Shown here: positions 5,670-24,507 of the stretch, piece after piece
Numbering within the stretch: position 1 is the stretch's first letter
Layout: each line of letters begins with the position of its first letter
IMG/VR virus record: IMGVR_UViG_3300037067_013349
DNA from: an uncultured virus (IMG/VR IMGVR_UViG_3300037067_013349)
Taxonomy: Duplodnaviria > Heunggongvirae > Uroviricota > Caudoviricetes
Strand: one strand, 5' to 3'
Length of the DNA: 43,790 bases
The notes under the pieces: model-generated
What the model was told of the DNA's origin: nothing
Databases searched by the model: none
What the model saw: the letters and a program-made list of their open reading frames with translations, nothing else
Program-made: the position numbers and the translations under genes

Positions 5670-8600
5670 CTATTCTTCGGCTGTCAAAATACCGTCCGTG
5701 AACGTTAATTTTCTCGTCGGTGATCCACCACTGGTATCTGAAACGTAATACACTTTCGTTCCAGCTAATCCTGATGGTACAGGACCAGTAGCACCAGAGG
5801 CACCAGCAATACCTGAGGCACCATCTATACCGGTTGCTCCTGATGCACCGTCTATGCCAGTGGCACCTGTAGCTCCAGTTTCACCTTGAGGCCCAGAAGC
5901 TCCGCCCGGATCACCTTGGGGGCCGGTTGCTCCTGATGCACCATCTATGCCAGTGGCACCCGTTAATCCAATGTCACCCTGAGGACCCGTTGATCCTGTA
6001 GCACCAGTAGCCCCCGTTAAACCAACAGGACCAGTCGAGCCAGTCGCACCAATGGCTCCCGTTTCGCCCTGAGGACCCGTTGATCCTGTAGCTCCCGTTT
6101 CACCCTGCGGACCAGAAGCCCCTCCAGGATCTCCCTGCGGGCCAGTAGCACCTGAGGCACCATCTATGCCCGTGGCTCCCGTTTCGCCCTGAGGACCCGT
6201 TGAACCTGTGGCTCCAGTTTCACCTTGAGGACCAGAAGCACCACCAGGATCGCCTTGGGGACCGGTAGCCCCTGTGGCACCCAGATCTCCTGTAGCTCCT
6301 TGAGGGCCAGTAGAGCCAGTGGCTCCTGTTTCACCCTGCGGACCAGAAGCACCACCAGGATCACCTTGGGGACCGGTAGCCCCTGTGGCACCGACTGAAC
6401 CCGGATCTCCTGTGGCTCCCGTGTCGCCCTGAGGACCGGTCGCACCGTCTATGCCAGTAGCACCTGTGGCTCCAGCTTCACCCTGTGGTCCGGAAGCCCC
6501 TCCGGGATCGCCTTGAGGTCCGGTGGCACCAGAAGCACCACTAGCGCCATCAATACCAGTAGCTCCTATTTCTCCTTGCGGACCGGTAGATCCTTGGACA
6601 CCGGTAGCACCAGAGGCACCGCTAGCTCCGTACGGACCCATTAAGCCTGTAGCGCCTGTTAAACCGATATCACCCTGCGGACCGGTAGCACCAGTAGCTC
6701 CCGTTTCACCTTGTGGTCCGGAAGCCCCTCCGGGATCGCCTTGAGGTCCGGTAGCGCCAGAAGCACCAGGATCTCCGGTGGCTCCGGTTTCGCCTTGAAC
6801 TCCACTGGCACCGTCTATGCCGCTTGCTCCTTGGACTCCACTAGCTCCATCGATACCGCTTGCACCGATATCACCCGTAGTTCCTGTTTCACCCTGAGGA
6901 CCCGTTGAGCCTGTGGCTCCCGTTTCACCCTGCGGACCAGAAGCCCCTCCAGGATCTCCCTGCGGGCCAGTAGCACCTGAGGCACCGGAAGCTCCCTGCG
7001 GACCGCTTGCACCAGTTGCGCCTGTCGCTCCTGTTTCACCCTGCGGACCAGAAGCCCCTCCAGGATCTCCCTGCGGGCCAGTAGCACCAGTTGCTCCTGT
7101 TTCACCTTGAGGGCCTGAGGCACCACCAGTATCACCTTGTGGGCCTGTAGCGCCTGAAGCCCCATCTATACCAGTTGCGCCTGCGTCACCTTGAGATCCT
7201 GTCGCACCGGTTTCACCTTGTACTCCTGATGCGCCTGCTTCTCCGGTTATACCGCTAGCTCCTTGAGTACCGGTAGCACCTGAAGCGCCTGAGGCACCAT
7301 CAATACCAGTGGCACCTGCTTCTCCTTGAGGGCCAGAAGCACCGCCAGTGGGACCTTGCGGTCCTGTAGATCCGGTTGCGCCAATATCACCGGTGTCGCC
7401 AGTGTGGCCAGTAGCCCCGGAAGCACCTGGAAAACCAGTATAACCTTGTTCTCCCTGTGGGCCAGTAGCACCTGAGGCACCACTGGCACCATCGATGCCG
7501 GTGGCTCCTGTTAGTCCAATGTCGCCTTGTACACCAGTAGCACCTGAAGCTCCTGAAGCACCAGTCAGACCAGCACCAGTCGCACCAGTGAGGCCAGTAA
7601 AACCTGTAGCACCAGAAGCACCAGAATATCCGGTATATCCACTAGCGCCTTGAGCGCCTGAAGCTCCTATACCAGAAGCTCCCTGGGTACCCGTAGCACC
7701 TGAAGCACCTGAAGCACCATCGATACCAGTGGCACCAGTAAGACCTGTTTCACCTTGTGGGCCTGTAGCACCTGAAGCCCCGCTAGCTCCATCGATACCA
7801 GTAGCACCCGTGTCTCCGACACCTGAGGCACCTTGGACACCCGTAGCACCTGAGGCACCTGAAGCGCCATCGATACCAGTGGCACCTGAAGGGCCAACAA
7901 GACCGGTAGCACCAGTAGCTCCCGTTAAACCAACAGGACCAGTCGAGCCAGTCGCACCTACGGGGCCACCAAATGGACCAGAAGCTCCCGTTAGACCAGT
8001 TGCTCCGACAGGACCAGTTGCGCCGGTAGCACCAGCTCCCTGAGGACCAGTACTACCGGTTGCACCTGCATCGCCATCAGCACCAGTTGCGCCGGTTGCA
8101 CCTGCATCGCCATCAGCACCAGAGGCTCCAGCATTTCCTTGAGAACCGGTTGCACCTGCGTCACCAGCAGCACCAGTCGAACCAGTTGCACCAGTAGGGC
8201 CACCAGAAGGACCAGTAGCGCCAGTCGGGCCAGTGATACTAACGCCAGTGGCCCCTGTTGCACCTTTGGAACCAGTAGCACCAGTTGATCCAGCGATACC
8301 GGTTGCTCCTGCTGGACCAGAGGCACCACCAGTTGGGCCTTGTATACCAGTAGCTCCGGTCAAGCCGGTAGCTCCAGCTACTCCAGTCGCCCCGTCACGA
8401 CCGATGCCTGTAGCACCAGTTGCACCAGCTACACCAGTTGAGCCACCTACACCAGTTGAGCCTGTTGAACCAGCAGGGCCGGAAGCTCCACCAGTAGGGC
8501 CGGTTGCTCCCGGCTGCCCGGCAGGACCAGAAGCACCATCAAGACCAACACCAGAGGCACCAACAGGACCACCAGGGCCGGTTGAACCTGTCGCCCCCGT

Positions 8601-11600
8601 TGGACCACCGCCAGGACCAGTAGCACCGGCGGCACCATCAGCACCAGTTGAGCCAGTCGCCCCAAGTCCGCTAGCACCCTGCGGGCCAGTTGAACCGGTA
8701 GCTCCGATTGGGCCACCAGCAGGGCCAGTTGCGCCAGTGAGTCCAATACCAGTAGCACCAGTAGCACCAGTCGGGCCACCAGAAGGGCCGGTAGCACCAG
8801 GAGTGCCAGTTGCACCTGTCGCTCCAATACCAGTAGCTCCAGTTGCACCAGGCAAACTGATTCCAGTCGAGCCGGTTGCTCCTGATGGACCAGACGCACC
8901 ACCAGTAGGACCGGTTGCTCCTATCGGACCCGTCGAGCCCGTGGCACCAGCTCCTGTCGCGCCGATAGGTCCGATTGGTCCCAGCGACCCTTGCGGCCCT
9001 GTCGAGCCAGTCGCCCCTGTCGGACCGCCGCTGGGGCCGGTAGCTCCAGCCGCACCGGTTGCTCCAGAAGCACCAATGATACCAGTTGAAGACCAAGATA
9101 GATTACGATAACCGTCTGTGACTAATACCTGACCGGCTGAGCCGTCGATATTTGGGAATCGCATGTTGCTAATAACAACATTCTTCCCGGTGCCCCATGC
9201 TGAGAGTTGTAAATCCTCCCCAGACACTGAATGGATGACCGATATTTGTAGGCCGCCTGCGTCATCGTATTGTAGCCCAGCACTATCAATTAAACGGCCG
9301 TGAGTACCAGCAAATGGTATCCTATTTGGTGTGAGCCGCGTCCCATCGTTCAGAATAAAGCCTTTACGAGCACCATTAGTTGTGATTGTAAAGTACAGAT
9401 CATCTTGTATGAATTCAACTGCACCAGCTTCTGGTACTGCTAGAACGTCACCAGACTCCATTTTCACCGGTGCATTACCTGGTGCAGCTTTACCAGCTTG
9501 AATATGCAATCTTGCAGTTGGATTATGTATGCCAATACCTGTTTGCTGCCCAGTGACCACAACCGTTTCATCCGCTCTCATTCGCTCCAGTGGATGATAG
9601 AAGTTGGTCAAACGAGTCGCGTTATATTCGGGAACACCAGCGTTATTGTCAAGAGTGACAGTCCCTAACCAGCGATATCCCTTATAGTTGCCACTGGCAA
9701 CGAAGACCGGGACGCCATCTAAGGTTGCAAGACCGTCTGAATCAACTTGTATCCAGTATCCCGCTGCCAAATCGTCCGCGAACACACCAGACGTATGACT
9801 AACGACGCAAGCATACGTGTAGGAATAGAGAACTCTTTGGCCTATTGAATATGATGTCGCGGTAGCCCAATCTTCAATACGGCTCTCAGAAACAGGAGTA
9901 TATTCAACATACTTCAATTCGCCAATAGTAGCAAACCATAGTTGATCTGCACCATCTATCTCCTGCATCGGATATGTGCACGCAGTCACATCAATGCGAT
10001 AAAATCGATATTCTATCGCATTATCGAAAGTGAAATAATCAGACCATATATCAACGCCAGATGGCGGGTCGACATCGGTTCTTGTGTCCAAGACCGACCA
10101 ATTGACATTATCATTCGAGCCAGAAAATGTCCATGTCCTTGGCAGTGATGGATAATAAAGCTTGGCTTTAAATGCGTATTTGTTGATAGCCTTCTTCACA
10201 TATGGACCAAAGTCATATGTGATCCACATAGGCGTTTGGAAAGGATCGCCTGGCGTGTAGCCAGTGCCACCAATTTGAACACCCCATCCCGGATTTCCAG
10301 GCGTGTCTTCTTGGTTGAAAGCGTACCAACCGTACAGATATGTGCCACCGACCTGGACACCAGTTGAACTGGTAATGACCATGTTTGGCGTGGGATCGAC
10401 AAACGACGTCATTACCGCTGTACATGTAGTCGTTCCAGTATTGTATATGCCATCAGACGGTACAAACTTCCAGGGTGCGAACTGAATGTCAAAAGACGTG
10501 GCGTTTACAAATGATGCGAAGACATCATATGTTCTATTGGCAATTAATGGATTTGCACCCATATCATTGACAATATTCGAAACTGTTGGGGCAGTAGCAA
10601 TATTGACGACATCCCAAACACTATTGGTGTCATCATATAACCTAATCAAACTTGATTCTACGAAATTCCAACTTAAAATGGTGGAGCTAGTTATTTTAAG
10701 ATTGCCGCCAACTATGTCGCTGTCAGCAGCGTCTCCGCCATTATCAACCCATGACAAATTACCATAGCCGTCTGTTTGTAGGACTTGGGTTGGAAGGCCG
10801 TTATCTCTTGGAAGATCAAGCGCACCTAATATAATATTACCAATCGTTCCTGCCGCGATTGAGATGTCGCCTGTGTCTTTCTTCCTCTCAACAATGTTGT
10901 AAAAATTGCCTATCAATGAGTTATTGAAATAAGGTGTACCAGCTATATCATATAACGACAATATCCCAAGCCATCTGTATCCTTTGAAATCTCCAGAATT
11001 GGCATAGACAGGAACACCATCAAAAACGCCTAGCCCACATGCTTCAACCAAAATCCACAAACCGCTTGCTAAATCTGTAGCAAAATCACCTGAAGTATGA
11101 GCAGAGAGGCATGCATAGACGCTATCGTGAATAACTCTATCGCCAACATTATAAGCTGTACCAGTTTCCCAATAGCTGGCTCTTGAATTAGCTGGAACAC
11201 CGCGTACGAGCTTAATCTCATTTAGCTCAACATACATCGCCCCATAACCAGCGTCTGCGGGGCAATTGGTGATGAGCTTATAATAGCGATAAGCTATTCC
11301 ATTAGAAAATGTATAATAAGCACTCCATGTTTGATCACCTGGGCCACTTATGCCGGTTCTCGAATCCAACAGAACGTAATCGACGCCGTTCTTTGAGCCG
11401 TAGAGGGAGAATTCGGTTGGAAACGCTCCATTGTCGTTTGCCCGTAAAGCATATTTATTAACAATGGTTGGAATGTTGAAGTCGTATTGTATCCAAGCTG
11501 AGGTAGCTAGCGGAATTGGTGTTGATGACCAGCAACGAGCCACATCGTCACTAAAAGCGTTCCAAGCATCATATAGTTCACTACTTGCACTACTGACCTG

Positions 11601-12926
11601 TGGTGCTGGCGTAGCATCAGATGTCATTGTCGTGGTGCATGTTGTAGTTCCAGGATTGTTAGCACCATCAACAGACACAACTTTCCATGGGGCGAAATCG
11701 ATATCAAACGCAGTCAGCGTACCATTATAGACGGCGAACACATCATAAACCAAATCTGACTCTAATGCATTACCACCTAAATCATTGGAAAGGTTAGAGG
11801 CAACAGGTTCAGTCGCTATATCGAGCAGCTCCCAAGCAAGCACGTCAGTATTATAGAGACGAATGTGACTTGAGGAATAGAAGCTCCAGCTTAGAACATC
11901 GCCAGCAGAAGCTTCTAATCGACCACCAACAGTATCACTGCTCTCGCCACCAGGCACAATCATGCTATTAACATAACGAACTGTCGCTACGTCATCTGCT
12001 ACTGATGGGGTCGGTGTGTGATTGTTGAGGAACTCGTTATCCGTCCCAAGATCGACCGCTGGAATGCGGAATGTATTATGATTAATGACGTTGTTGTCTG
12101 AACCAGAATCCAAGGTGAATGATGATCCGACAGCCCGCTCTACCAATGCGTTGTTCTCGATAGTATTGGAACTTGCACTTACGAGCTTTACAGCGTCCAA
12201 ATTGTCATCGATTTTGTTATAGTGCAGGACGTTGCTGTCTGAATTCTGAACATAAAAGCCAATAGTATTCGACTTAGATGTGCTCTCAGTGATTGAGTTA
12301 TTGTCAGAATAGACGATAGAAAAGCCCGTATTGACGTTAGAATCACTAATATTTTCTTCACCGTGGTTTCCGGTGGAGTTGAAAATACCGATACCATCGG
12401 CATTGTTTAAGGTTGTGTTATTCGAAATTGTGTTATCGTTCGAAGAATTCTTGAGTACGATGCCGTATTCGCGGTTGCCGTCACAAGTGTTATTAGTTAT
12501 GACGTTATTTCCGCTTCCAGTTAATTCGATACCGTTCTTATTCCCTGTGCACACGCACAAATCAATAGTAAAGACGTCTTCTGGAGATGAGTTATCAAGG
12601 AGAATACCAGCTTGGTTGTCTGTAGATGCTGTCACTGTGAATAACTTAAACATGCCGGACACAGCAGTAATCCGGACAGTCGGTGCAGACGTCCCATCTC
12701 CTCTAATAATCGTTGTTCGTGGATCGTCAGTATAAATATTGAGGATCTTGTTGATTGTTAGATTCTCGGTATATGTCCCCGGCCTGACGTAAATAACGTC
12801 TTTCTCAATAGCAGCATTAATAGCCGCCTGGATAGTAGTGTATTCATCATAGTCAGTAGAACCGACGCTGATGGTGTAATCAGCAGTTGCTTTAGTGACT
12901 ATTCTGTCGGTATTTCTTAACGTCAT
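5670..12926 (-). CDS. Collagen-like tail fibre / virion surface protein with a right-handed beta-helix, two discoidin(F5/8)-like plus CBM5/12-like modules, and about 1100 aa of G-X-Y repeats
   Basis: [22 protein letters not shown] followed by GI.L..S.NN.I.NN repeats; WIQYDF..NKY..P....GS....W..LD.R..YRYY twice; W.TGTAY.VG.RV..YAC..HTSG twice; GAT/GAS/GPQ repeats. Confidence 0.85.
5775..9075 (-). repeat. Collagen G-X-Y coding repeat region
   Basis: Recurring [23 protein letters not shown] units; GC-rich periodic DNA. Confidence 0.9.
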
Positions 12927-15711: not shown

Positions 15712-16478
15712 AACGGGCGATTCATTCTAATAACGAACGCCATATAATCTTCTTTAGTATCGATACCATAAGTGGGTTCGTTGGCGATTCCTACTAAGAT
15801 TTTATGACCAAAATAGAGTGCCCGTAGTTGTTCAAGACTCTCCATAGTCTCCATCTGGCATGGAGGATGTTGGACGAGTTTTAATAAGAAATCTCGCCTA
15901 TAAGCATATACACCCACGTGCCGATAAAAAATGGTTCGCAGGAATTGACTGTTATCGGGTTCTGTGCCACCGTCTAATATGCCAGGATATGGAACAGGAC
16001 CTCGGCTGAAATACAACGCCCTGTTCTCATGATCCAGAACAACCTTCACACAAGATCGGTTGCAAAGCTGCGACAGTGAGCGAATCGGAGAAGCAATTGT
16101 ACTCATCACTTCTGCTGGATTCTCTTTGAGTAGCTTGACGGCCAAATCGATCAATGAACCCTTTATCTCAGGTTCATCAGCTTGCACATCGACGATGATA
16201 TCAGCGTCGGCGTGATCTGCAATTTTACTAGTAGCTAATGCTACTCTTTCCGTGCCATTCTCTGCCGCACCGGTCATCACGACGTCTCCGCCGAATGACT
16301 CTACTTCCTTACGAATAGCCTCGTCATCAGTCGCAACGCACATACCTGTCGAATATATAGATTGCATCGCTGACTGATAGGTATGGTGCAGAACAGATTT
16401 GCCGGTATTACGCAACAGAAGTTTACCGGGCAAACGAGACGAGCCCATACGAGCAGGAATGATAATTTTACACTTCAA
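15708..16478 (-). CDS. kdsB: 3-deoxy-manno-octulosonate cytidylyltransferase (CMP-Kdo synthetase)
   Basis: IIPARMGSSRLPGKLL, VATDD, GTERVA, VQADEP, VKVV..ALYFSR, HVGVYAYR, ESLEQLRAL, GIDTKED motifs. Confidence 0.93.
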   Translation of the reverse strand: MKCKIIIPARMGSSRLPGKLLLRNTGKSVLHHTYQSAMQSIYSTGMCVATDDEAIRKEVESFGGDVVMTGAAENGTERVALATSKIADHADADIIVDVQADEPEIKGSLIDLAVKLLKENPAEVMSTIASPIRSLSQLCNRSCVKVVLDHENRALYFSRGPVPYPGILDGGTEPDNSQFLRTIFYRHVGVYAYRRDFLLKLVQHPPCQMETMESLEQLRALYFGHKILVGIANEPTYGIDTKEDYMAFVIRMNRPF

Positions 16479-16491
16479 GGGCTGGATACTC

Positions 16492-17982
16492 CCTGTAGTC
16501 CTGTAATTGCTTGGGAACGAACACTGTTCTCCCTTTTATGTGGAGTAGTTCCGCGTCGACCTGTAGCCCTGTAATCCTAACGCTATTCTCATTATCACTT
16601 CAACATTTCAGAAAAATCCTGCAGCCCTATCGATCCGGCCATCTTCACTGTTTGCGCCTGTAGTCCTGTAATTGCCTAGTAGTTACCTCCATTGCGAAGA
16701 GGCTTTGTGACGTTAATCACGACCTGTAGTCCTAACGCTATTCTCCATTTTACCGAGAACGAAATGGCCCTTTCCCTGTAGTCCTAATGCTTCATTCGGC
16801 ACCCTACTTCACCTGTAGTCCTAACGCTATTTTCATTAATCGTATCAAAGTCGTAATCGAGCGACCTGTAGTCCTGTAACGCTATTCTCCATTGCGATCA
16901 ATCGCTACACGCGGCGGCAAACCTGTAGTCCGCAGGGTAGCCACTACGAACAGATGGACCTGTAATCCTGGAAACGAACGCTCTATTTGGGAGCCTGTAG
17001 TCCTAACGCTATACCAGAAGTATGGCGACCTGTAGTCCTGTAGTTACCTGGGAACGAACGTTATTCTCCATTGCTTCTCCGAAGCACCTTCGGAATGTGG
17101 AACCTGTAGTTACCTGGGAACGAACGCTATTCTCCATTGACGGTCGCTTCAAGCAATATATGGGACTCCTGTAGTCCTGTAATCCTGGGAACGAACGCTA
17201 TTCTCCATTTGGGAAGGCGATACTCAACAGCATTCTGCACCTGTAGTTACCTGGAACGAACGCTATTCTCCATTCACTTCGGTTGAAGTCTGGTCCACCG
17301 CTGACCTGTAGTTACCTGGGAACGAACGCTATTCTCCATTAAAACCGAGCATACCATCTCCCCTGTAGCTGCTAAGCAAATACGCCATGGGAGCCTGTAG
17401 TCCTGTAGTTCTAATGCTGTTCTCCATTCATAAACACAAACCGCATAAATCGGAGTGTCCTGTAATCCTGTTTTGAGCCTGCCGTATCAGATTCCTGTGA
17501 CCCTGTAGTCCTTCTCCATTTTACTCGGTCAGATAGGCTCCATGTGACTTACCTGTAGTCCTGTAATTCAAGCGGGCCAAGAATACATCCTGTAGTTACC
17601 TGAGAACGAACGCTACTCCATTTTTCAGAAGAGATACATCATCCTGTAGTCCTGTAGTTTACCTGGGAACGAACGCTATTCCATTTGCCGCAAATTCGAC
17701 AGGCTATACGATCTCCTGTAGTCCTGTAGTTACCTTGGGAACAAACGTTATGCTCCATTAAACTGGGAACGAACGCTATTCTCCATTAGTTGCTCGACTC
17801 GCTGTTCGGTCTGCGCCCTGCAGTTACCTGGGAACGAACGCTATTCTCCATTTGGCGCGTCCGTGATCTATATGCCTGTAGTCCTGTAATCCTGGGAACG
17901 AACGCTATTCTCCATTGCTTTGGCTAGTGAAGTCTTCTAGCTTGGTCCTGTAGTTACCTGAGAACGAACGCTATTCTCCATT
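16492..17982 (-). CRISPR. CRISPR-like array 1: about 27 degenerate repeats; full repeat 36 nt (+ strand CCTGTAGTTACCTGGGAACGAACGCTATTCTCCATT); spacers mostly 27-31 nt
   Basis: Perfect 36-mers at 17103 and 17305; variants beginning CCTGTAGTCCTGT or CCTGTAGTCCTAA; unique spacers between them. Confidence 0.9.
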
Positions 17983-18618: not shown

Positions 18619-19140
18619 TCAATTAGCTTCGAGTTCAATTATCTTAGCTTGAAGCTCGGCAATTTGCGCCCGAAGAGCCTCGTTCTCCGCTTCCAGTGTC
18701 TTGATGCGGGCTAAAAGCTGGTCCTGGACTGCCTGCATCGACGCCTTGACCTTGCGGGCTTCCTTATATGGGTCGGCTGGCTTGGCCCGGCGACGACGTG
18801 GCGGAACGTCGGATTTCGTCTTGGCGAGCATACCGTTGTACATGTCGCGAAGCTTGCCATCCTTCCATTGATATTCTTCCGGATAATGATTGAGCATCAT
18901 CCGTAATTCGGAGAAGGTCAAGCAAAGGTCGCTGACATATTCATCCAGGATGGCCAGAAGCTTGTTGTTGTCCAGGATCTCGTTGTCGGCCCGAAAGTCT
19001 GGGTCTTCATAGACACTGTTCAATAGAGTTGCCCGCCGATAGGCATTATGGCCACTCGACTGCTGCAGCTTCCGGACTTGCTGTAAGAGCTTCTTGTACT
19101 GCCTTTTGCAGCGTGGCTGGGTTGGTGCGGTCGACCTCAT
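18619..19140 (-). CDS. Hypothetical protein with C-terminal coiled coil
   Basis: AAGGAGG upstream; LLARIKTLEAENEALRAQIAELQAKI heptads. Confidence 0.75.
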   Translation of the reverse strand: MRSTAPTQPRCKRQYKKLLQQVRKLQQSSGHNAYRRATLLNSVYEDPDFRADNEILDNNKLLAILDEYVSDLCLTFSELRMMLNHYPEEYQWKDGKLRDMYNGMLAKTKSDVPPRRRRAKPADPYKEARKVKASMQAVQDQLLARIKTLEAENEALRAQIAELQAKIIELEAN

Positions 19141-19691: not shown

Positions 19692-19720
19692 ATGCGCCGT
19701 TCGGAGCCCCCGCAGTCCTG

Positions 19721-19900
19721 TTATGTTGTCTGCAAGAAGTCTCTCATTTCGATCAATTCATCAACACTTCTGAATGACATTTGGTAGCCATCCTTTTCTA
19801 GTATGAGAATCAATCCTTGCAGCATAAGCTTGAGTCGTCGAAAATTTTCCACATTGTTTAAAAATACGAGAAGTTCGTGACGCCACGAGTTTGGCACCAT
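19721..19900 (-). CDS. 59-aa ORF exactly filling the space between two repeat units
   Basis: Hand-translated MVPNSWRHELLVFLNNVENFRRLKLMLQGLILILEKDGYQMSFRSVDELIEMRDFLQTT*; ATG abuts repeat 19901, TAA overlaps core 19709-19721. Confidence 0.55.
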   Translation of the reverse strand: MVPNSWRHELLVFLNNVENFRRLKLMLQGLILILEKDGYQMSFRSVDELIEMRDFLQTT

Positions 19901-20581
19901 CCTGCAGTCCTGTAGTTACCAAACACTGGATTTCCAAACGAGATTTATTAAACCTGTAGTCCTGTAGTCTAATGCTATACTCCATTGTATCGCTATGTCG
20001 CTACTTTGCGAAGAGCCTGTAGTCCTGTAGTTACCGAACGCTATTCTCCATTTTCACGTTCCACTCGATCTTGTTGAAACTCCTGTAGTCCTGTAATCAT
20101 AACGCTATCCCAAAATGTCAGGAGGGCGTCATTAGTCCTGTAGTCCTGTAGTTACCTGGAAACGAAATTTCACCACAAAACCGAATTTTCAAAGAACTCC
20201 TGTAGTCCTGTAGTCCTAACGCTATTCTCCATTACCGTAATTTATGGGGTACCTGTAGTCCTGTAGTCCTAATGCTATTCTCCATTCATACATTCATGTA
20301 TTTTGGCGGCAATGCTCCTGTAGTTACCTGGGAACGAATGCTATTCTCCATTTGAGCAAGATCGAGCTGTGCACCGGCATTTCCTGTAGTTACCTGGGAA
20401 CGAACGCTATTCTCCATTTGTCAACAACGCTGGTATACTCCGATTCCTGTAGTCCTAATGCTATTCTCCATTTGAGAAGTGGAACGGCCTGTGCTTCAAT
20501 GCCTGTAGTCCTGTCCTATAGTCCTAACCTGTTCTCCAGAGGTTCTTACCACCTGTAGTCCTGTAGTCCTAACGCTATTTT
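19901..20581 (-). CRISPR. CRISPR-like array 2: about 12 repeats of the same family
   Basis: Repeat starts at 19901, 19953, 20016, 20082, 20137, 20199, 20252, 20317, 20383 (perfect 36-mer), 20446, 20502, 20552; spacers mostly 27-32 nt. Confidence 0.9.
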
Positions 20582-20743: not shown

Positions 20744-20847
20744 AATCCATGTAGTACCTTGAAACGCTATTAGGTGGTTCCCATCGCCTAACTATTGTCT
20801 TCCTCTTCCCTCAAGTGTTGTTACTCATGATTCAAGAGCAAGTGCTA

Positions 20848-21399
20848 CCTGTAGTCCTGTTATACTTCTTCTGGCAGCCTGAAAATATTAACCCACCTGC
20901 CATGGATTTTTGTTTTGCGCTTCACCAATTCGCCCGGTGTTCTAGCCAATGCTGCCATCACGCGGTCTGATGTTTTTGTGCATTCATGTGGCCACCCCAG
21001 CCGCTCGGCTATCAAATGTAACAACCCCTCGTCACCAAACATGACGGCTGGATTGTCCGTTTCTCTCAGCACTTCAACAGCAGCATCACATGCTCGCATG
21101 TTTGAACCATCTAATCTTAGCGGCCTGCAGTCCTGTTATTCAATCAATCAACGTGAAAAAGGGCGGACGACCTGTAGTCCTGTTATTTGCCATGTGTCGT
21201 CTGACTCACTTCACATGTATAATATATAAAATTCAGCTTGTGCTTGTCCTGCAGTCCTTAATACCGTGTCCCAAAAGGCGGTGTCCATTGATGGAAAAGG
21301 ATATAAATGCAAACTATTTCTGCCGCGAACGTCAAATTAAATGATACAAGCGATAGTAACGTTGAATGCCAATAAGTGGCGGGACAAGTCCTGTAGTCC
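20848..21399 (-). repeat. Dispersed minimal repeat cores CCTG(T/C)AGTCC(TGT) at 20848, 21124, 21171, 21248, 21390
   Basis: 10-13-nt matches to the conserved end of the array repeat, same orientation. Confidence 0.75.
20860..21099 (-). CDS. Hypothetical protein flanked by repeat cores
   Basis: 79 aa; stop overlaps CCTGTAGTCCTGT (20848-20860); core at 21124 upstream. Confidence 0.65.
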   Translation of the reverse strand: MRACDAAVEVLRETDNPAVMFGDEGLLHLIAERLGWPHECTKTSDRVMAALARTPGELVKRKTKIHGRWVNIFRLPEEV

Positions 21400-21452: not shown

Positions 21453-22598
21453 TCATTGCCTAACCGTAACGTCGATATCAACCTTGTTACAAGATCGTTG
21501 AATCAACGACTGCATTTGTTGCCAGTCCCATCGAGTCGTCTCGGTGTCACCAATACGTCCAGCATATGACAAATAGTAATCGGTGGGCGGGGCGAAAATG
21601 ACAAGATGACCGATGCCGTTTGTCACTAACAATCTCGTCACGTCATTGGCGAGATGAGTGCTCCAGGTCTTGATGAAATCACGCCAACGCCGCTCATATT
21701 TCGCTTTGTCGGCGGTCGAGCCCTGCTTCCTAGTCTTCTTGCTCTCCTGAATGTCCAAGGTGTTTCGTGTGTGCTCGACATCTTCGCCACGGCGAAGACG
21801 GAATATGGTTCTGCCATTGAACCGAAAAGAAAATGGCCGGTGTTGTGCTGCCAATAGGAATGCAGTCTTGTTCTTGTTAAGCGGCAGTCTCACCTTCGGA
21901 ATTGAATGACAGAGATAAGCTTGCCATCGACCGTCGCGTTCCTTCAAATCGACGCCCTTCAACTCCCATTCGCCAGCCGTAATTTTCCACAACGCATCGC
22001 GGACAGAATGTAACCGGTAGCTCTTGGTCTTGATGACGAAAACCATCGGACCGTAGCCGTCAACATCGACCTCAAGCTTCCAGTCTTCATCCTTGGTTTG
22101 TGGGACGATGATCCGACAATCTCGTTTGTGCAGCGGAATATTGCTGCGTTTGGACGATTGCGAAAGACCACCACAGCCAGCGAGAACGGTTATCCAGCGT
22201 GGATAAGCTGATCTGTATCCACGGTGGTGTAACAAATCCTTAACCGCCTTATGCACCGCCAACTTACCCTCTCTGCCCATTAATGGGTGCTCGGCTGCAA
22301 TGATTTCGTCAAGCTGCTGAGCGATTTCGTCGCTGTAGGGGTCGACTGGGCATCGAATGCGAGGACCGACTCTGCTTTCCGGCTCATAGAGCCATCGTTT
22401 GTCCTGTTCGAGCCATTCACGAACCAATAGGTGGTTATTGGCGTCAAAATGAAGCTGTAGCCAAGCCGACATGAAATCGTTGACAATTTGTTGAATGTCG
22501 GTGGCCAGTGAGAGCAAATGCTTTTTGTGCGACTTGAAGCTGTCGTCACTACCGATCAAATCAACCCGTTTGTTCTTGATGACTCGGAAATCTCCCAT
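21453..22598 (-). CDS. cas12f: Cas12f/TnpB-family protein B, predicted nuclease-dead and C-terminally truncated
   Basis: LWKITAGEWELKGVDL..DGRWQAYLCH WED signature; RuvC-I position reads TAFLLAA, RuvC-II position HLVIFAP; WDWQQMQSLIQ..DIDV ends the protein; clear paralog of 22825..24240. Confidence 0.75.
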   Translation of the reverse strand: MGDFRVIKNKRVDLIGSDDSFKSHKKHLLSLATDIQQIVNDFMSAWLQLHFDANNHLLVREWLEQDKRWLYEPESRVGPRIRCPVDPYSDEIAQQLDEIIAAEHPLMGREGKLAVHKAVKDLLHHRGYRSAYPRWITVLAGCGGLSQSSKRSNIPLHKRDCRIIVPQTKDEDWKLEVDVDGYGPMVFVIKTKSYRLHSVRDALWKITAGEWELKGVDLKERDGRWQAYLCHSIPKVRLPLNKNKTAFLLAAQHRPFSFRFNGRTIFRLRRGEDVEHTRNTLDIQESKKTRKQGSTADKAKYERRWRDFIKTWSTHLANDVTRLLVTNGIGHLVIFAPPTDYYLSYAGRIGDTETTRWDWQQMQSLIQRSCNKVDIDVTVRQ

Positions 22599-22611
22599 AT
22601 TGTCTCCATAA

Positions 22612-22687
22612 AGGTAACTCTGGCGAGGGCTAACACGGTACGGAATGCCCGCAGCTATTCTCGCCTTCGAGACGTACAGGACGCCTC
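22612..22687 (-). ncRNA. tracrRNA-like RNA copy 1 (3' tail AGUUACCU)
   Basis: 76-nt repeat; 5' hairpin GAGGCGU-CCUGU-ACGUCUC; GGCGAG/CUCGCC stem; tail complementary to repeat AGGUAACU. Confidence 0.75.
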
Positions 22688-22705
22688 TATTTGTGATTTA
22701 TAAAA

Positions 22706-22781
22706 ACAGGACTCTGGCGAGGGCTGACACGGTACGGAATGCCCGCAGCTATTCTCGCCTTCGAGACGTACAGGACGCCTC
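22706..22781 (-). ncRNA. tracrRNA-like RNA copy 2 (3' tail AGUCCUGU followed by a U-run)
   Basis: Near-identical 76-nt copy; tail complementary to repeat ACAGGACU. Confidence 0.75.
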
Positions 22782-22824
22782 CGGTTGTGATTCTGGATAT
22801 TAGTAGCGTGAAAGTAACTATTAA

Positions 22825-24240
22825 TTAACTATCCCGATTTTCGGATTTAATCTGCAGTCCCGGTTCGTCGTCTTCCTTCTTCCGCGACTTGCCTCCTTGC
22901 TTAATGACCACATTTATACCAGCAGCCTTACCAACTTGCTCCAACTGGCGTTGCATATGGTACCAGTCCCATGCCGTCGATTCGCTACGGCCTATCTTAC
23001 CAACATGGGACAAATAGCGGCTATCACGCCATTTCCCGGTCGGTTGATAAGTCACGAGACGCCCAATGCCGAATTTGACACAGGTACTGATGACTTCTGC
23101 GGCCCAATTGTTGTTGAAGGTTTTGGTCCGATTGCGCCAATTGCGTTCCGATTTCTTTCGCCAGTCATGAACCTTACGGCCATGATTCTTACGAGCACTG
23201 GAAGCATACTTGTAGCTTTCGTTCTTACCAAATCGTTGAAGCGTCAAAGAACGACGAGCCCGTTTAATATGCTTGCAACTTCGCATTCGCATTTGCGTCT
23301 TGCCGTTGATGCGGAACAGAACAGCACCATATCGACCGGCTGATACGATAGCCGTTTTGGTGCTGCTGAACGATGCCGTGACGCCAGGAATCAGGTAGCA
23401 TATATCAGCGTACCACTTTCCTTCGAACTGGACGAGTTGGGAAGTGTTGAGAATATAATCGCCAGATGCAATTTTCCACAACACGCGACGAATTGGCGAC
23501 AACTTACGCCCACCGGTGGTGAGCCTAAACGTCATCGGACGTAGGAACCTTTTACCCTCAATCTTTTCATAGCGAACGGTCAGCTTCCATGGCTCATCAT
23601 TGCTACGGGGCACAACAAGATTGCTGTTGCTTGTATAGAATGGAACAGGTAGAGGCTTAGACGATTGTGGGTATTCTCCAAGCCCTGTTAAAATCCTAAA
23701 CCATCGTTTGTATTTGGATTTCGTCGCTGGTGCTTTGATAAGCGTCTTGCTAAGCCGATTGGTTACAATGCCAATCGGCTTAGTTCCAAGATTGGCATGC
23801 TGGGTGGTCAGCAGGCCATAGATCTGAATCCCCATTTCGTTGGTGTATGGCTGCACAGGGCATTTGATACGTGGCGGTATATCAACCTTAGGTTGATCTG
23901 ACGCCTTCTTTTTGCCGTTCTTGCCCTTCTTGCCATTTTTCTCGGCTTTTTGAGCCGCTGCCAGCTTGGCGTATTTCCGTGCCCACTCTTTGTCCTCCTC
24001 AATCCATTTGCGAAGGGCGGTTGGCGATCCAGCCTGTCGGTGCAATCGGAACCATTGACTATAAAAGTCGTTGGTAATTTGCTGCATCTGGCATGATAAC
24101 ATCACCAGACGTCTTTTCTCCTCGGCAAAATCGCCGTCACAGCCGCTCAATTCGACCCGAATGACTTTGGTGAGTCCATCAGGCTTCTTTTTACGCGGCT
24201 TCTTCGGGTCGTCTTTCACGGTCGTCTTCTTCTTACTCAT
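22825..24240 (-). CDS. cas12f: Cas12f/TnpB-family protein A, predicted nuclease-dead and C-terminally truncated
   Basis: TKVIRVEL N-terminal strand; KIASGDYILNTSQL..GKWYADICY; bridge region KYASSARKNHGR...RNRTKTFNNNWAAEVI..GIG; WDWYHMQRQLEQVGKAAGINV; GIDLG site reads IVSAG, EDL site reads YQP; no CxxC finger or RuvC-III. Confidence 0.8.
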   Translation of the reverse strand: MSKKKTTVKDDPKKPRKKKPDGLTKVIRVELSGCDGDFAEEKRRLVMLSCQMQQITNDFYSQWFRLHRQAGSPTALRKWIEEDKEWARKYAKLAAAQKAEKNGKKGKNGKKKASDQPKVDIPPRIKCPVQPYTNEMGIQIYGLLTTQHANLGTKPIGIVTNRLSKTLIKAPATKSKYKRWFRILTGLGEYPQSSKPLPVPFYTSNSNLVVPRSNDEPWKLTVRYEKIEGKRFLRPMTFRLTTGGRKLSPIRRVLWKIASGDYILNTSQLVQFEGKWYADICYLIPGVTASFSSTKTAIVSAGRYGAVLFRINGKTQMRMRSCKHIKRARRSLTLQRFGKNESYKYASSARKNHGRKVHDWRKKSERNWRNRTKTFNNNWAAEVISTCVKFGIGRLVTYQPTGKWRDSRYLSHVGKIGRSESTAWDWYHMQRQLEQVGKAAGINVVIKQGGKSRKKEDDEPGLQIKSENRDS

Positions 24241-24260
24241 TTAACATTCCCTATTGAAAA

Positions 24261-24336
24261 ACAGGACTCTGGCGAGGGCTAACACGGTACGGAGTGCCCG
24301 CAGCTATTCTCGCCTTCGAGACGTACAGGACGCCTC
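24261..24336 (-). ncRNA. tracrRNA-like RNA copy 3 (3' tail AGUCCUGU followed by a U-run)
   Basis: Third 76-nt copy directly upstream of effector A. Confidence 0.75.
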
Positions 24337-24507
24337 CGGTTTTCATGTAGGTTTATAGCTCCCTGCTGATGGTTGATTAACTTAAATCACCTGCGAGCTA
24401 CTTCTGTTATAGCCTCAGTGAAGCTATTAATTAACTGACTGAGCACATATTTCTCTGGGTTAAATCGTAGCAACCGTCGTGCTATAAGTACTATAGGGAG
24501 CCAAAAA

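What the first reader, a model, noticed from the sequence alone, without database searches (positions are those of the whole stretch)
21453..24240. Possible heterodimeric effector from two diverged paralogs
A (471 aa) and B (381 aa) share motifs throughout (QQI.NDF..W, P.RI.CPV.PY, Y.RW...L.G.G...QSSK, LWKI..G, YLS..G.IG..E.T.WDW). B lacks the Lys-rich inserts and the KYA..R..HGR segment. Established: Cas12f1 works as an asymmetric homodimer on one guide. Inference: duplication may have split the two protomer roles, or each protein may use one tracr/repeat type.
Basis: inference. Interest (0 to 1): 0.75.

Follow-up and report, generated by a model that had tools for sequence, protein, structure and literature searches.

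The report
Paired dead Cas12f paralogs in phage
A large phage carries two diverged copies of a miniature, non-cutting CRISPR protein next to its own guide-RNA genes, and they probably work together as a two-part DNA-binding unit where related systems use two copies of one protein.

Summary
ORF A (22825-24240, minus strand, 471 aa) and ORF B (21453-22598, minus strand, 381 aa) are paralogs (32% identity, E 5e-76). Both fold like Cas12f. Both lack the RuvC-I Asp and RuvC-II Glu and end before the Zn-ribbon and RuvC-III, so they are predicted not to cut DNA.

They sit in a large phage beside irregular mini-CRISPR arrays and three copies of a ~80-nt tracrRNA-like gene. The 3' tail of that RNA covaries with the repeats.

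The A-then-B tandem recurs in four other fetched lineages. A and B are sister clades from one duplication of a single-copy "tracr - gene - array" module. Both are under similar purifying selection.

B has replaced 19 family-conserved positions and A only 6. At the REC dimer interface each copy has lost a different member of a symmetric His62/Tyr68 contact, so only an A:B dimer keeps one intact pair. An A:B model scores 0.77 against 0.01 for controls, on the known Cas12f dimer surface.

A heterodimer that hard-wires the two Cas12f protomer roles is the best reading (about 0.55), but it is unproven: A:A and B:B could not be modelled. "One protein per tracr/repeat type" is weaker, because pair loci L010 and L011 have one tail type.

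The parts
22825..24240 (-). Gene A: 471-aa Cas12f-like protein, predicted nuclease-dead and C-terminally truncated (A clade). It has a Lys-rich N-terminal tail and keeps the KYASSARKxHGR loop.
   Evidence: ORF. Matches solved Cas12f by sequence at E 1.7e-7. AF2 model pLDDT 79.8. Foldseek top hits AsCas12f 2e-18 and dCas12f 9n9c 3e-14. PADLOC Cas12u3 1e-12 and Cas12f 6e-11.
21453..22598 (-). Gene B: 381-aa paralog of A (B clade). It has the same fold and the same truncation, lacks the basic N-tail and the KYA..HGR loop, and has clade-fixed replacements at 19 family-conserved positions.
   Evidence: AF2 model pLDDT 86.7. Foldseek top hits AsCas12f 3.5e-15 and dCas12f 8e-14. Conservation analysis.
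24257..24337 (-). tracrRNA-like gene, copy 1, directly upstream of A. Two hairpins, then the anti-repeat tail AGTCCTGT and a T-run.
22702..22782 (-). tracrRNA-like gene, copy 2, in the A-B intergenic region distal to B. Tail AGTCCTGT and a T-run.
22610..22687 (-). tracrRNA-like gene, copy 3, directly upstream of B. Tail AGTTACCT, complementary to AGGTAACT in the R1 repeats.
19847..20472 (-). Mini-CRISPR array 1, in the same orientation as the genes. It mixes 36-nt R1 repeats with ~30-nt spacers and 35-nt R2 repeats with ~18-nt spacers, plus degenerate units.
16444..17982 (-). Mini-CRISPR array 2: irregular, with R1, R2 and hybrid repeats.
18619..19140 (-). 173-aa ORF with a C-terminal coiled coil. 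Homologs lie next to the arrays in the pair loci L009, L010 and L011 and in the single-copy loci L012 and L013. Candidate accessory protein.
   Evidence: Synteny by tblastn. No family assignment.

Best explanation
A and B are two diverged paralogs of a Cas12f-type (type V-F-like) RNA-guided DNA-binding protein that is predicted not to cut DNA, encoded by a large phage. The phage also carries three copies of a compact tracrRNA-like gene and several irregular mini-CRISPR arrays. The ancestral module, still present in single-copy relatives, is 'tracr - dcas12f - array', and by analogy with Cas12f and dCas12f it presumably forms an asymmetric homodimer on one tracr:crRNA guide. One duplication of the tracr-plus-gene unit produced A and B, which have been inherited together since then. 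The most likely arrangement is that they now assemble through the conserved REC helix-alpha1/loop surface into an A:B heterodimer on one guide, with the two protomer roles hard-wired. A keeps nearly all ancestral nucleic-acid-contact positions and gained a basic N-tail, so it would take the PAM/TAM- and target-binding role (protomer 1). B has lost or replaced many of those positions, so it would take the scaffold- and R-loop-supporting role (protomer 2). The complex would bind DNA without cutting it, either silencing targets in CRISPRi fashion or recruiting a partner such as the conserved 173-aa coiled-coil protein. Shown here: paralogy, the Cas12f fold, absence of the catalytic residues and of the C-terminal Zn-ribbon/RuvC-III segment, a conserved tandem pair, a single duplication, purifying selection on both copies, tracr structure with anti-repeat covariation, and asymmetric, reciprocal sequence changes. 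Inferred: heterodimer assembly, which copy plays which role, DNA binding without cleavage, and the targets.
For: Identity. A matches solved Cas12f sequences at E 1.7e-7, and the A1 profile matches SpCas12f1 and AsCas12f at ~1e-18. Both AF2 models have Cas12f and dCas12f as top fold hits.

Catalytic residues absent. In 164 family members (of 168 proteins held; 4 shorter than 330 aa were dropped) Asp is not among the six commonest residues of the RuvC-I Asp column (R47, S27, V14, H11, I10, T9). The RuvC-II Glu column is Gln in 125. The tail after the last strand has a median of 18 aa.

Pair conserved. The A-then-B tandem is present in the window and in 6 of 13 fetched loci: L001~L009, L002~L011, L003 and L010, which are four further lineages. 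The 5 B-type hits on contigs of 3 kb or more each share a contig, or a contig length, with an A-type.

One duplication. The A clade has 100/100 support, the B clade 100/100, and they are sisters at 96/89. The single-copy L004/L012, L005, L013 and P0010 branch just outside, and the two subtrees branch in parallel.

Both maintained. dN/dS between L010 and L011 is 0.089 for A and 0.093 for B.

Asymmetric specialisation. Of 127 family-conserved columns, 65 are kept in both, 19 are kept in A and replaced in B (mostly fixed within B), and 6 are kept in B and replaced in A.

Reciprocal interface loss. All 7 single-copy relatives carry Tyr or Phe at position 68, and 5 of 7 carry His at position 62. 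All 7 matched A proteins have lost the Tyr (Gln/Arg/Leu). All 7 matched B proteins have lost the His (Ala/Thr) but keep Tyr/Phe. The model puts A62 against B51, which is position 68 in A numbering. An A:B dimer therefore keeps one ancestral-type contact and neither homodimer keeps any.

Complex model. Score 0.77 against a best of 3 controls of 0.01. That mark was reached by 116 of 157 solved complexes and 2 of 215 mismatched pairs. The runs agree in at least 76% of contacts and the partner's pLDDT is at least 81. The interface is A 53-74 plus 172-194 against B 33-60 plus 128-149. This is the symmetric helix-alpha1 plus loop surface reported for SpCas12f1 (PMC12255294, passage read).

One scaffold for both genes. 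The tracr body is 90-97% identical across loci whose proteins are about 52-55% identical. It lies upstream of both A and B.
Against: There is no measurement of binding. The complex pass may come from the model's memory of solved Cas12f homodimers, and the interface motifs are conserved in both paralogs, so A:A and B:B may also form. They could not be modelled because the cap was one job. The His62/Tyr68 contact rests on a predicted model, and the reciprocal contact B45-A68 is inferred from symmetry rather than listed among the 25 best pairs. In 3 of 7 A proteins position 62 is Gln, not His. Each gene has its own tracr copy, which also fits two independent modules. The window has two tracr tail types matching two repeat classes. 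Adjacency in three of the seven matched pairs is inferred only from equal contig lengths. P0009 sits in the A clade but its contig could not be fetched. No fused A-B protein was found (weak evidence). The assignment of A to protomer 1 and B to protomer 2 is an inference from which residues were lost, with no residue-level mapping onto a solved structure.
Confidence: 0.55

Rival explanations
1. A and B are two independent effectors. Each forms its own homodimer and serves a different guide class, with one tracr tail and repeat type per protein.
For: The window has two tracr tail variants. AGTCCTGT lies upstream of A and distal to B, and AGTTACCT lies directly upstream of B. They match two repeat classes with different spacer lengths: R2/R3 with ACAGGACT and ~18-nt spacers, and R1 with AGGTAACT and ~30-nt spacers. 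Each gene has its own upstream tracr copy. The dimer-interface motifs are conserved in both paralogs, so homodimers are structurally conceivable.
Against: In pair loci L010 and L011 all tracr copies (4 of 4 and 3 of 3) have one tail type, AGTCACCT, and the repeats share a single matching anti-repeat target, AGGTGACT. The pair therefore exists without two tail classes. The tracr scaffold body is the same upstream of A and of B. B has replaced 19 family-conserved positions, including a loop shared with active AsCas12f, so it is unlikely to do everything alone. Each homodimer would lack the His62/Tyr68-type contact on both half-sites.
Confidence: 0.2
2. A is the real effector and works as a homodimer like the single-copy relatives. 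B is an auxiliary paralog that modulates it, for example as an RNA chaperone or processing factor, a competitor for tracr, or a regulator of A.
For: A keeps 121 of 127 family-conserved columns by the criterion (6 are lost) and all ancestral segments. B is the more derived copy. Alone, B has no sequence match to solved structures.
Against: B is under purifying selection as strong as A's (0.093 against 0.089). It keeps the full Cas12f fold and the dimer-surface motifs. A itself has lost the interface Tyr68 in 10 of 10 A-clade sequences, which is hard to explain if A still relies on an A:A interface.
Confidence: 0.17
3. The pair is a decaying remnant of a type V-F system and has no RNA-guided function.
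For: The catalytic residues and the C-terminal domain are missing. The arrays are irregular and partly degenerate. No protospacer was found.
Against: dN/dS is about 0.09 for both genes. The truncated family has 646 representative clusters. The tracr is ~97% conserved while synonymous sites are saturated, and it shows compensatory changes and anti-repeat covariation. Related truncated dCas12f proteins are functional (PMC13472631, section 5 read).
Confidence: 0.03

Closest known systems
Type V-F Cas12f1 nucleases (AsCas12f, SpCas12f1, Un1Cas12f1)
   Same: Same WED-REC-RuvC fold, and the closest solved relatives by sequence. They use a tracrRNA plus CRISPR repeats. They dimerise through REC helix alpha1 and a loop. 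The dimer is asymmetric on one guide, with subunit 1 reading the PAM and subunit 2 supporting the R-loop (PMC12255294, passages read).
   Different: Here the RuvC Asp and Glu are replaced and the Zn-ribbon and RuvC-III segment is absent. The tracr is much shorter (about 80 nt against about 200 nt of total guide RNA for Cas12f1, per the PMC12255294 abstract). The genes are phage-encoded. There are two diverged paralogs in place of one gene.
dCas12f of the dCas12f-sigmaE RNA-guided transcription system (Flavobacterium taeanensis; PDB 9n9c)
   Same: A nuclease-dead Cas12f homolog with a C-terminal truncation that removes part of RuvC. It forms an asymmetric dimer on one compact guide RNA (PMC13472631 section 5; 10.1101/2025.06.10.658880 section 6). 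It is a strong fold match.
   Different: That system is a homodimer of one protein. It uses a single fixed guide encoded downstream with no CRISPR array, and it is coupled to a sigmaE factor with a special C-terminal domain. Here there are arrays and a separate tracr. No sigma factor was found among the 30 window ORFs scanned. There are two paralogs. The sequence relationship is more distant (E 1.8e-5) than to active Cas12f.
The array-associated dCas12f cluster mentioned in PMC13472631
   Same: Putative nuclease-dead Cas12f encoded near CRISPR arrays, with a suggested repressor role (section 5).
   Different: I saw only that one sentence. The figures are not held, so I cannot tell whether this phage family belongs to that cluster. 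The sections and passages I read mention no paralog pair, heterodimer or phage origin (term counts: heterodimer 0, paralog 0, phage 1, in the reference list).
TldR (TnpB-like nuclease-dead repressors)
   Same: Miniature RuvC-dead RNA-guided DNA binders derived from the TnpB/Cas12 lineage, acting as repressors (abstracts seen).
   Different: TldRs derive from TnpB. From recall, they use a TnpB-type omega-RNA guide rather than a tracr plus array. Here the Cas12f structures match far better than the TnpB structures (Foldseek 2e-18 against 2e-8), and the guides are tracr plus CRISPR repeats.

Membership tests
Cas12f (type V-F effector) | WED-REC-RuvC architecture of about 400-550 aa with detectable homology to Cas12f | tested here: met
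   A against PDB Cas12f at E 1.7e-7, and the profile at ~1e-18. Foldseek A 2e-18 and B 3.5e-15 to AsCas12f. PADLOC Cas12u3 and Cas12f models match A.
Cas12f (type V-F effector) | Intact RuvC catalytic triad (Asp, Glu, Asp) | tested here: not met
   The RuvC-I Asp aligns to Ser in A. Family-wide, Asp is not among the six commonest residues of that column, and the Glu column is Gln in 125 of 164 sequences. The region that would hold the third Asp is missing.
Cas12f (type V-F effector) | C-terminal Zn-ribbon / target-nucleic-acid-binding domain | tested here: not met
   A and B end 26 and 3 residues after the last RuvC strand. Neither has a Pfam OrfB_Zn_ribbon hit.
Cas12f (type V-F effector) | CRISPR array plus tracrRNA with an anti-repeat | tested here: met
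   Arrays lie on the gene strand. The ~80-nt element has two covarying hairpins (4 of 20 pairs with double changes). Its tail is complementary to the repeat, in the same register, in 6 of 6 loci where arrays are visible, with three different compensatory states. Transcription itself was not shown.
Cas12f (type V-F effector) | Two protein subunits on one guide RNA, joined through REC | tested here: inconclusive
   The A:B model scores 0.77 against 0.01 for the best control, on the REC alpha1/loop surface. No RNA was in the model, and A:A and B:B were not run.
dCas12f-sigmaE RNA-guided transcription system | Nuclease-dead Cas12f with a C-terminal truncation | tested here: met
   Fold match to 9n9c.
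dCas12f-sigmaE RNA-guided transcription system | Operonic sigmaE (rpoE) with a dCas12f-binding C-terminal domain | tested here: not met
   No sigma-factor Pfam family was found in 30 window ORFs of 79 aa or more scanned at E<=1e-5. The conserved neighbour is instead an unassigned 173-aa coiled-coil protein.
dCas12f-sigmaE RNA-guided transcription system | Single fixed guide RNA encoded downstream, with no CRISPR array | tested here: not met
   Multiple arrays with varied spacers, and a separate tracr upstream of the genes.
TldR (TnpB-like nuclease-dead repressor) | Derivation from TnpB, with an omega-RNA-type guide overlapping the 3' end of the gene (feature recalled, not from a call) | tested here: not met
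   Cas12f structures match much better than TnpB structures. The guide components are a tracr upstream of the genes and CRISPR repeats.

The most novel reading that the evidence does not exclude
This is the first natural case in which the asymmetric homodimer of a miniature class 2 CRISPR effector has been resolved genetically into an obligate heterodimer of two specialised paralogs. A would be the PAM- and target-reading subunit and B the scaffold- and R-loop-supporting subunit. They would be held together by a once-symmetric REC interface that each copy has degraded on a different side. The phage would use the complex, with its own minimal tracrRNA and self-maintained mini-arrays, to silence host or rival-phage genes without cutting. 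In this particular phage, two tracr tails that match two different repeat classes would additionally feed two guide classes, and possibly orphan repeat-end motifs in its own transcripts, into the same protein pair.
Probability: 0.45. Interest if true: 0.82.

Novelty: new variant of a known kind. Interest (0 to 1): 0.7.

Why it matters
Cas12f is unusual among single-effector CRISPR proteins because two identical subunits do two different jobs on one RNA. A natural pair of paralogs that has split these jobs would show how a symmetric homodimer becomes an obligate heterodimer in an RNA-guided machine. It would also show which residues each role needs.

Such a pair would offer a very small (381 + 471 aa, ~80-nt tracr) programmable DNA-binding platform whose two subunits can be engineered separately.

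The finding also adds a phage-borne, array-using branch to the recently recognised nuclease-dead Cas12f proteins. Its broader family is large: 646 representative clusters at E<=1e-3.

Tried and rejected
- Pfam and NCBIfam gave no usable family for A or B.
- B alone has no sequence match to solved structures.
- The window's own genome is not held.
- Prokaryote species genomes: no relative of A or B among 17 pattern matches.
- Earlier notes of this scan: none.
- Protospacers: 14 window spacers against the window and loci, and 85 spacers from all loci against all loci, gave only identical arrays in near-duplicate contigs. Three window spacers, each as an exact 22-mer, found nothing in viral contigs or genome contigs. 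The targets are unknown.
- A tracr-core probe of the viral collection returned only the five contigs already known.
- P0009's locus was not found in the viral collection.
- No longer or fused relative of B was found. The tool itself calls this weak evidence.
- The 173-aa neighbour got no family from PHROGs, Pfam, the protein atlas, PDB or PADLOC beyond coiled-coil-type matches.
- The consensus scan found no sigma-70-like promoter upstream of A or the tracr copies.
- I first considered the ~80-nt element to be a promoter, leader or self-target. I rejected that in favour of a tracr because of the hairpin covariation and the tail-repeat covariation.
- I first took the KYA..HGR segment for the RuvC 'lid'. 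The dCas12f paper places the lid between RuvC beta4 and beta5, near the C-terminus, so that label was dropped.
- Foldseek TM-scores put the A model nearer to chain A, and the B model slightly nearer to chain B, of the AsCas12f entries (A: 0.48-0.52 against 0.36; B: 0.46-0.48 against 0.42-0.46). I do not rely on this. Domain orientation in a monomer model is arbitrary, and I did not verify which chain is which protomer.
Full report
OBSERVATION

The two ORFs are as described: A at 22825-24240 (minus strand, 471 aa) and B at 21453-22598 (minus strand, 381 aa). BLASTP of A against B gives 32% identity over 421 columns, E 5e-76. B lacks A's Lys-rich N-terminus, the internal Lys-rich insert and the KYASSARKNHGR segment.

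WHAT THE PROTEINS ARE

Pfam and NCBIfam give no usable match. Other evidence places both proteins with Cas12f:
- A matches the sequences of solved Cas12f structures (AsCas12f 7wju/8dzj/8j12 at E about 2e-7; SpCas12f1 9i8y) over residues 151-445.
- A profile of A, B and their close homologs matches SpCas12f1 and AsCas12f at about 1e-18. It matches the published nuclease-dead dCas12f (9n9c) at 1.8e-5.
- The AF2 models (A pLDDT 79.8; B pLDDT 86.7) have AsCas12f, OsCas12f and dCas12f as top Foldseek hits: A 2e-18 and B 3.5e-15 to 8j12_A.
- PADLOC's Cas12u3 and Cas12f models also match A.

Both proteins lack the residues and the segment needed for cleavage:
- In the alignment to AsCas12f the RuvC-I Asp is Ser in A.
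- Both proteins stop a few residues after the strand that follows RuvC-II, so the Zn-ribbon and the RuvC-III Asp are absent.

This holds for the whole family. An exhaustive profile search found 646 representative clusters at E<=1e-3 and 199 at E<=1e-30. I aligned 164 of the 168 proteins held, dropping 4 shorter than 330 aa:
- Asp is not among the six commonest residues of the RuvC-I column (R47, S27, V14, H11, I10, T9).
- The RuvC-II column is Gln in 125.
- The tail after the last strand has a median of 18 aa and a maximum of 108 aa.

CONTEXT

The window comes from a large phage:
- It encodes a 2,418-aa collagen-repeat tail fibre, DNA methyltransferases, an HNH endonuclease and several PHROG families.
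- The window's own contig is listed as 167,790 bp.
- Relatives of A and B lie on viral contigs of 122,508, 184,768 and 363,885 bp.
- None was confirmed in one genome from each of 185,579 prokaryote species.

Downstream of B on the same strand lie two irregular CRISPR-like arrays, at 20472-19847 and 17982-16444. All repeat signatures face one way. Three repeat forms occur:
- A 36-nt repeat (R1) with ~30-nt spacers.
- A 35-nt repeat (R2) with ~18-nt spacers. R2 lacks R1's central segment and ends in a doubled ACTACAGG.
- Hybrid and degenerate units.

A tracrRNA-LIKE GENE

A ~80-nt element occurs once directly upstream of A (24337-24257) and twice between A and B (22782-22702 and 22687-22610). 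Four results point to a compact tracrRNA:
- It is 90-97% identical in loci whose proteins are only about 52-55% identical, and synonymous sites there are saturated.
- A consensus fold of 13 copies gives two hairpins. 4 of 20 pairs show double compensatory changes and only 2 cells are broken.
- After the second hairpin comes an unpaired 8-10-nt tail and a T-run. The tail is complementary to the repeat segment that lies 5 nt before the spacer.
- The tail changes together with the repeat:

| Locus | Tail | Repeat segment |
|---|---|---|
| L010, L011 | AGTCACCT | AGGTGACT |
| L009, window (B-proximal copy) | AGTTACCT | AGGTAACT |
| L012 (single-copy) | ACTTGCCTTT | AAAGGCAAGT |
| L013 (single-copy) | AGTCACCT | GGGTGACT (one G-U pair) |
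| window (other two copies) | AGTCCTGT | ACAGGACT in R2-type repeats |

That is 6 of 6 loci with visible arrays, with three independent compensatory switches. Transcription of the element was not shown. In the viral collection the tracr core occurs only in the five contigs that carry these genes.

IS THE PAIR CONSERVED?

By tblastn, A followed by B on the same strand is present in the window and in L001~L009, L002~L011, L003 and L010. That is 6 of 13 loci and four further lineages. The intergenic distances are 107-630 nt and always include a tracr copy.

Of the 8 non-self B-type proteins, 5 lie on contigs of 3 kb or more. Adjacency in those last three was not verified.

Two single-copy loci are long enough to exclude a neighbouring paralog:
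- L012 has 6.3 kb of flank downstream.
- L013 has 8.5 kb upstream and 10 kb downstream.

Both have the simple layout tracr, gene, then a regular array of one repeat type (13 repeats in L013, 4 in L012). L004-L008 are too short to judge.

PHYLOGENY AND SELECTION

An IQ-TREE analysis used 41 rows: P0001-P0030 of 330 aa or more, plus locus proteins. P0020 and three partial locus proteins were dropped for length, and 4 duplicates were removed. Results:
- The A clade has 100/100 support and the B clade 100/100.
- A and B are sisters at 96/89.
- The single-copy L004/L012, L005, L013 and P0010 branch just outside, with P0021 next.
- The branching order inside A and inside B runs in parallel.

This fits one duplication followed by co-inheritance. 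P0009 falls inside the A clade and carries the A-type interface signature, but its 7.9-kb contig could not be fetched.

Both copies are maintained. dN/dS between L010 and L011 is 0.089 for A (430 codons) and 0.093 for B (400 codons). For the window against L009, dS is saturated.

EVIDENCE BEARING ON A HETERODIMER

1. Asymmetric specialisation. I compared 10 A-clade, 9 B-clade, 7 nearest single-copy and 34 wider-family sequences. Of 127 columns conserved outside the pair, 65 are kept in both clades. 19 are kept in A but replaced in B, and only 6 are kept in B but replaced in A. B's replacements are mostly fixed within B: Asn to Asp in 9 of 9, Arg to Tyr in 9 of 9, Tyr to His in 9 of 9. They cluster in A residues 198-282, which I assign to the WED region by analogy rather than by a structural mapping, and in the 343-354 loop. 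Active AsCas12f also has that loop.

2. Clade-specific gain in A. The A clade gained a basic N-terminal tail that B and the single-copy proteins P0010 and P0011 lack.

3. Complex prediction. A:B scores 0.77 in three runs (0.76, 0.77, 0.77) against 0.01 for the best of 3 controls. That mark was reached by 116 of 157 solved complexes and 2 of 215 mismatched pairs. The runs agree in at least 76% of contacts and the partner's pLDDT is at least 81. The interface is A 53-74 and 172-194 against B 33-60 and 128-149, with reciprocal contacts such as A Asn57 to B Gly141 and A Gly186 to B Asn40. This is the symmetric helix-alpha1 plus loop surface reported for SpCas12f1 (PMC12255294, passage read). The pass may therefore reflect likeness to solved homodimers. 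It does not by itself separate A:B from A:A or B:B.

4. Reciprocal interface loss. The listed contacts place the two-fold axis near A residue 65, so position 62 of one subunit faces position 68 of the other. A62 to B51 is among the best-supported pairs, and B51 is position 68 in A numbering.
- All 7 nearest single-copy proteins have Tyr or Phe at position 68, and 5 of 7 have His at position 62.
- In 7 of 7 matched pairs, A has lost the Tyr (Gln, Arg or Leu) and keeps His or Gln at 62.
- In 7 of 7 matched pairs, B has lost the His (Ala or Thr) and keeps Tyr or Phe.
- An A:B dimer thus keeps one ancestral-type contact and places both derived residues on the other half-site. A:A and B:B keep none.

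This complementary degradation is what a shift from homodimer to heterodimer would look like. It depends on a predicted contact.

5. One scaffold. The tracr body upstream of A and upstream of B is the same.

THE RIVAL 'ONE PROTEIN PER tracr/REPEAT TYPE'

The window does have two tail types matched to two repeat classes. Three points count against the rival:
- In L010 (4 of 4 tracr copies) and L011 (3 of 3) there is one tail type, and the repeats share the matching target even though their 5' halves vary.
- The R2 class was not found outside the window.
- The two tail types in the window differ only in the 8-nt anti-repeat, not in the protein-bound scaffold.

The second guide class therefore looks like a lineage-specific addition, not the reason for the duplication.

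MOST LIKELY MECHANISM

The tracr pairs through its tail with the repeat-derived 5' handle of a crRNA. A and B bind this guide as a 1:1 heterodimer through their REC surfaces. A does what subunit 1 does in Cas12f and dCas12f, namely PAM/TAM reading and most of the guide and target contacts. B does what subunit 2 does, supporting the R-loop and the scaffold (roles as described). The complex binds DNA but cannot cut it.

The targets are unknown. No protospacer was found in the window, in the loci, or by three exact 22-mer scans. Related phages share repeats but not spacers.

A 173-aa coiled-coil protein (18619-19140) is encoded next to the arrays in pair loci and in single-copy loci alike. It may be a partner, by analogy with the sigmaE C-terminal domain that completes the truncated RuvC of dCas12f. 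This is speculation.

COMPARISON AND NOVELTY

Nuclease-dead, truncated Cas12f homologs are known, and one is an asymmetric homodimer. An array-associated dCas12f cluster is mentioned in one sentence of PMC13472631.

I found nothing on a natural pair of Cas12f paralogs or a heterodimer in three full-text searches: 'Cas12f, heterodimer, paralog', 'Cas12f, phage-encoded, huge phages, dCas12f, Cas14' and 'heterodimer, TnpB, Cas12, two paralogs'. I read only listings and abstracts there. Figures and bioRxiv supplements were not available, and they may hold relevant phylogenies.

I file this as a new variant of a known kind.

LIMITS

- There is no experimental or RNA evidence (no RNA holder listed).
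- There was one complex job only.
- Three of the seven matched pairs rest on contig length.
- The role assignment is inferred.

Noticed in passing
window 24337-24257, 22782-22702, 22687-22610 (minus strand): The window carries two tracr tail variants. AGTCCTGT (two copies) matches ACAGGACT in R2/R3-type repeats, and AGTTACCT (one copy, next to B) matches AGGTAACT in R1 repeats. Two guide classes with different spacer lengths therefore coexist in one phage. Related pair loci L010 and L011 have one tail type.
   Followed up: partly
window 19706-19725, 20845-20864, 21121-21140, 21168-21187, 21378-21399: Orphan repeat-end motifs lie at gene boundaries outside the arrays. Four have the form ATAACAGGACTRCAGG on the minus strand, and the one at 21378-21399 has a related ACTACAGGAC form. 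They extend the complementarity to the AGTCCTGTT tracr tail to 9 nt. They might turn neighbouring transcripts into guides or be regulatory sites.
   Followed up: no
window 21436-21408 (minus strand): A perfect sigma-70 consensus promoter (TTGACA, 17 nt, TATAAT; 12 of 12) lies just after B's stop codon. It is followed within about 10 nt by an ACTACAGGAC motif. No such promoter was found upstream of A or the tracr copies.
   Followed up: no
window 18619-19140 (minus strand); L012 2393-2830; L013 10859-11302; also L009, L010, L011: A 173-aa protein with a C-terminal leucine-zipper-like coiled coil is encoded next to the arrays in both pair and single-copy loci (37-90% identity). No family could be assigned. 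It is a candidate accessory subunit of the system.
   Followed up: partly
L011 11494-11610 (same in L002 1957-2070): One tracr copy is fused directly to the last 10 nt of a repeat, followed by a 29-nt spacer and further repeats. It looks like a natural single-guide-like fusion or a recombination product.
   Followed up: no
window arrays against L009 arrays: The window and L009 share identical R1 repeats, and their proteins are 71-79% identical, but they share no spacer. No Cas1 or Cas2 family was seen among 30 window ORFs scanned. How the arrays turn over is unexplained.
   Followed up: partly
window 5670-12926 (minus strand): A 2,418-aa tail-fibre protein has a long collagen-triple-helix repeat region. 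It raises local GC to 0.59-0.62 against about 0.43 elsewhere. It also has beta-helix (NosD), F5/8 type C and carbohydrate-binding domains.
   Followed up: no
A residues ~88-123 (window ~23870-23980): The internal Lys/Gly-rich insert of A is present only in the window's A and its closest relative P0002/L009, not in the rest of the A clade. It is a recent lineage-specific addition to the REC region.
   Followed up: partly
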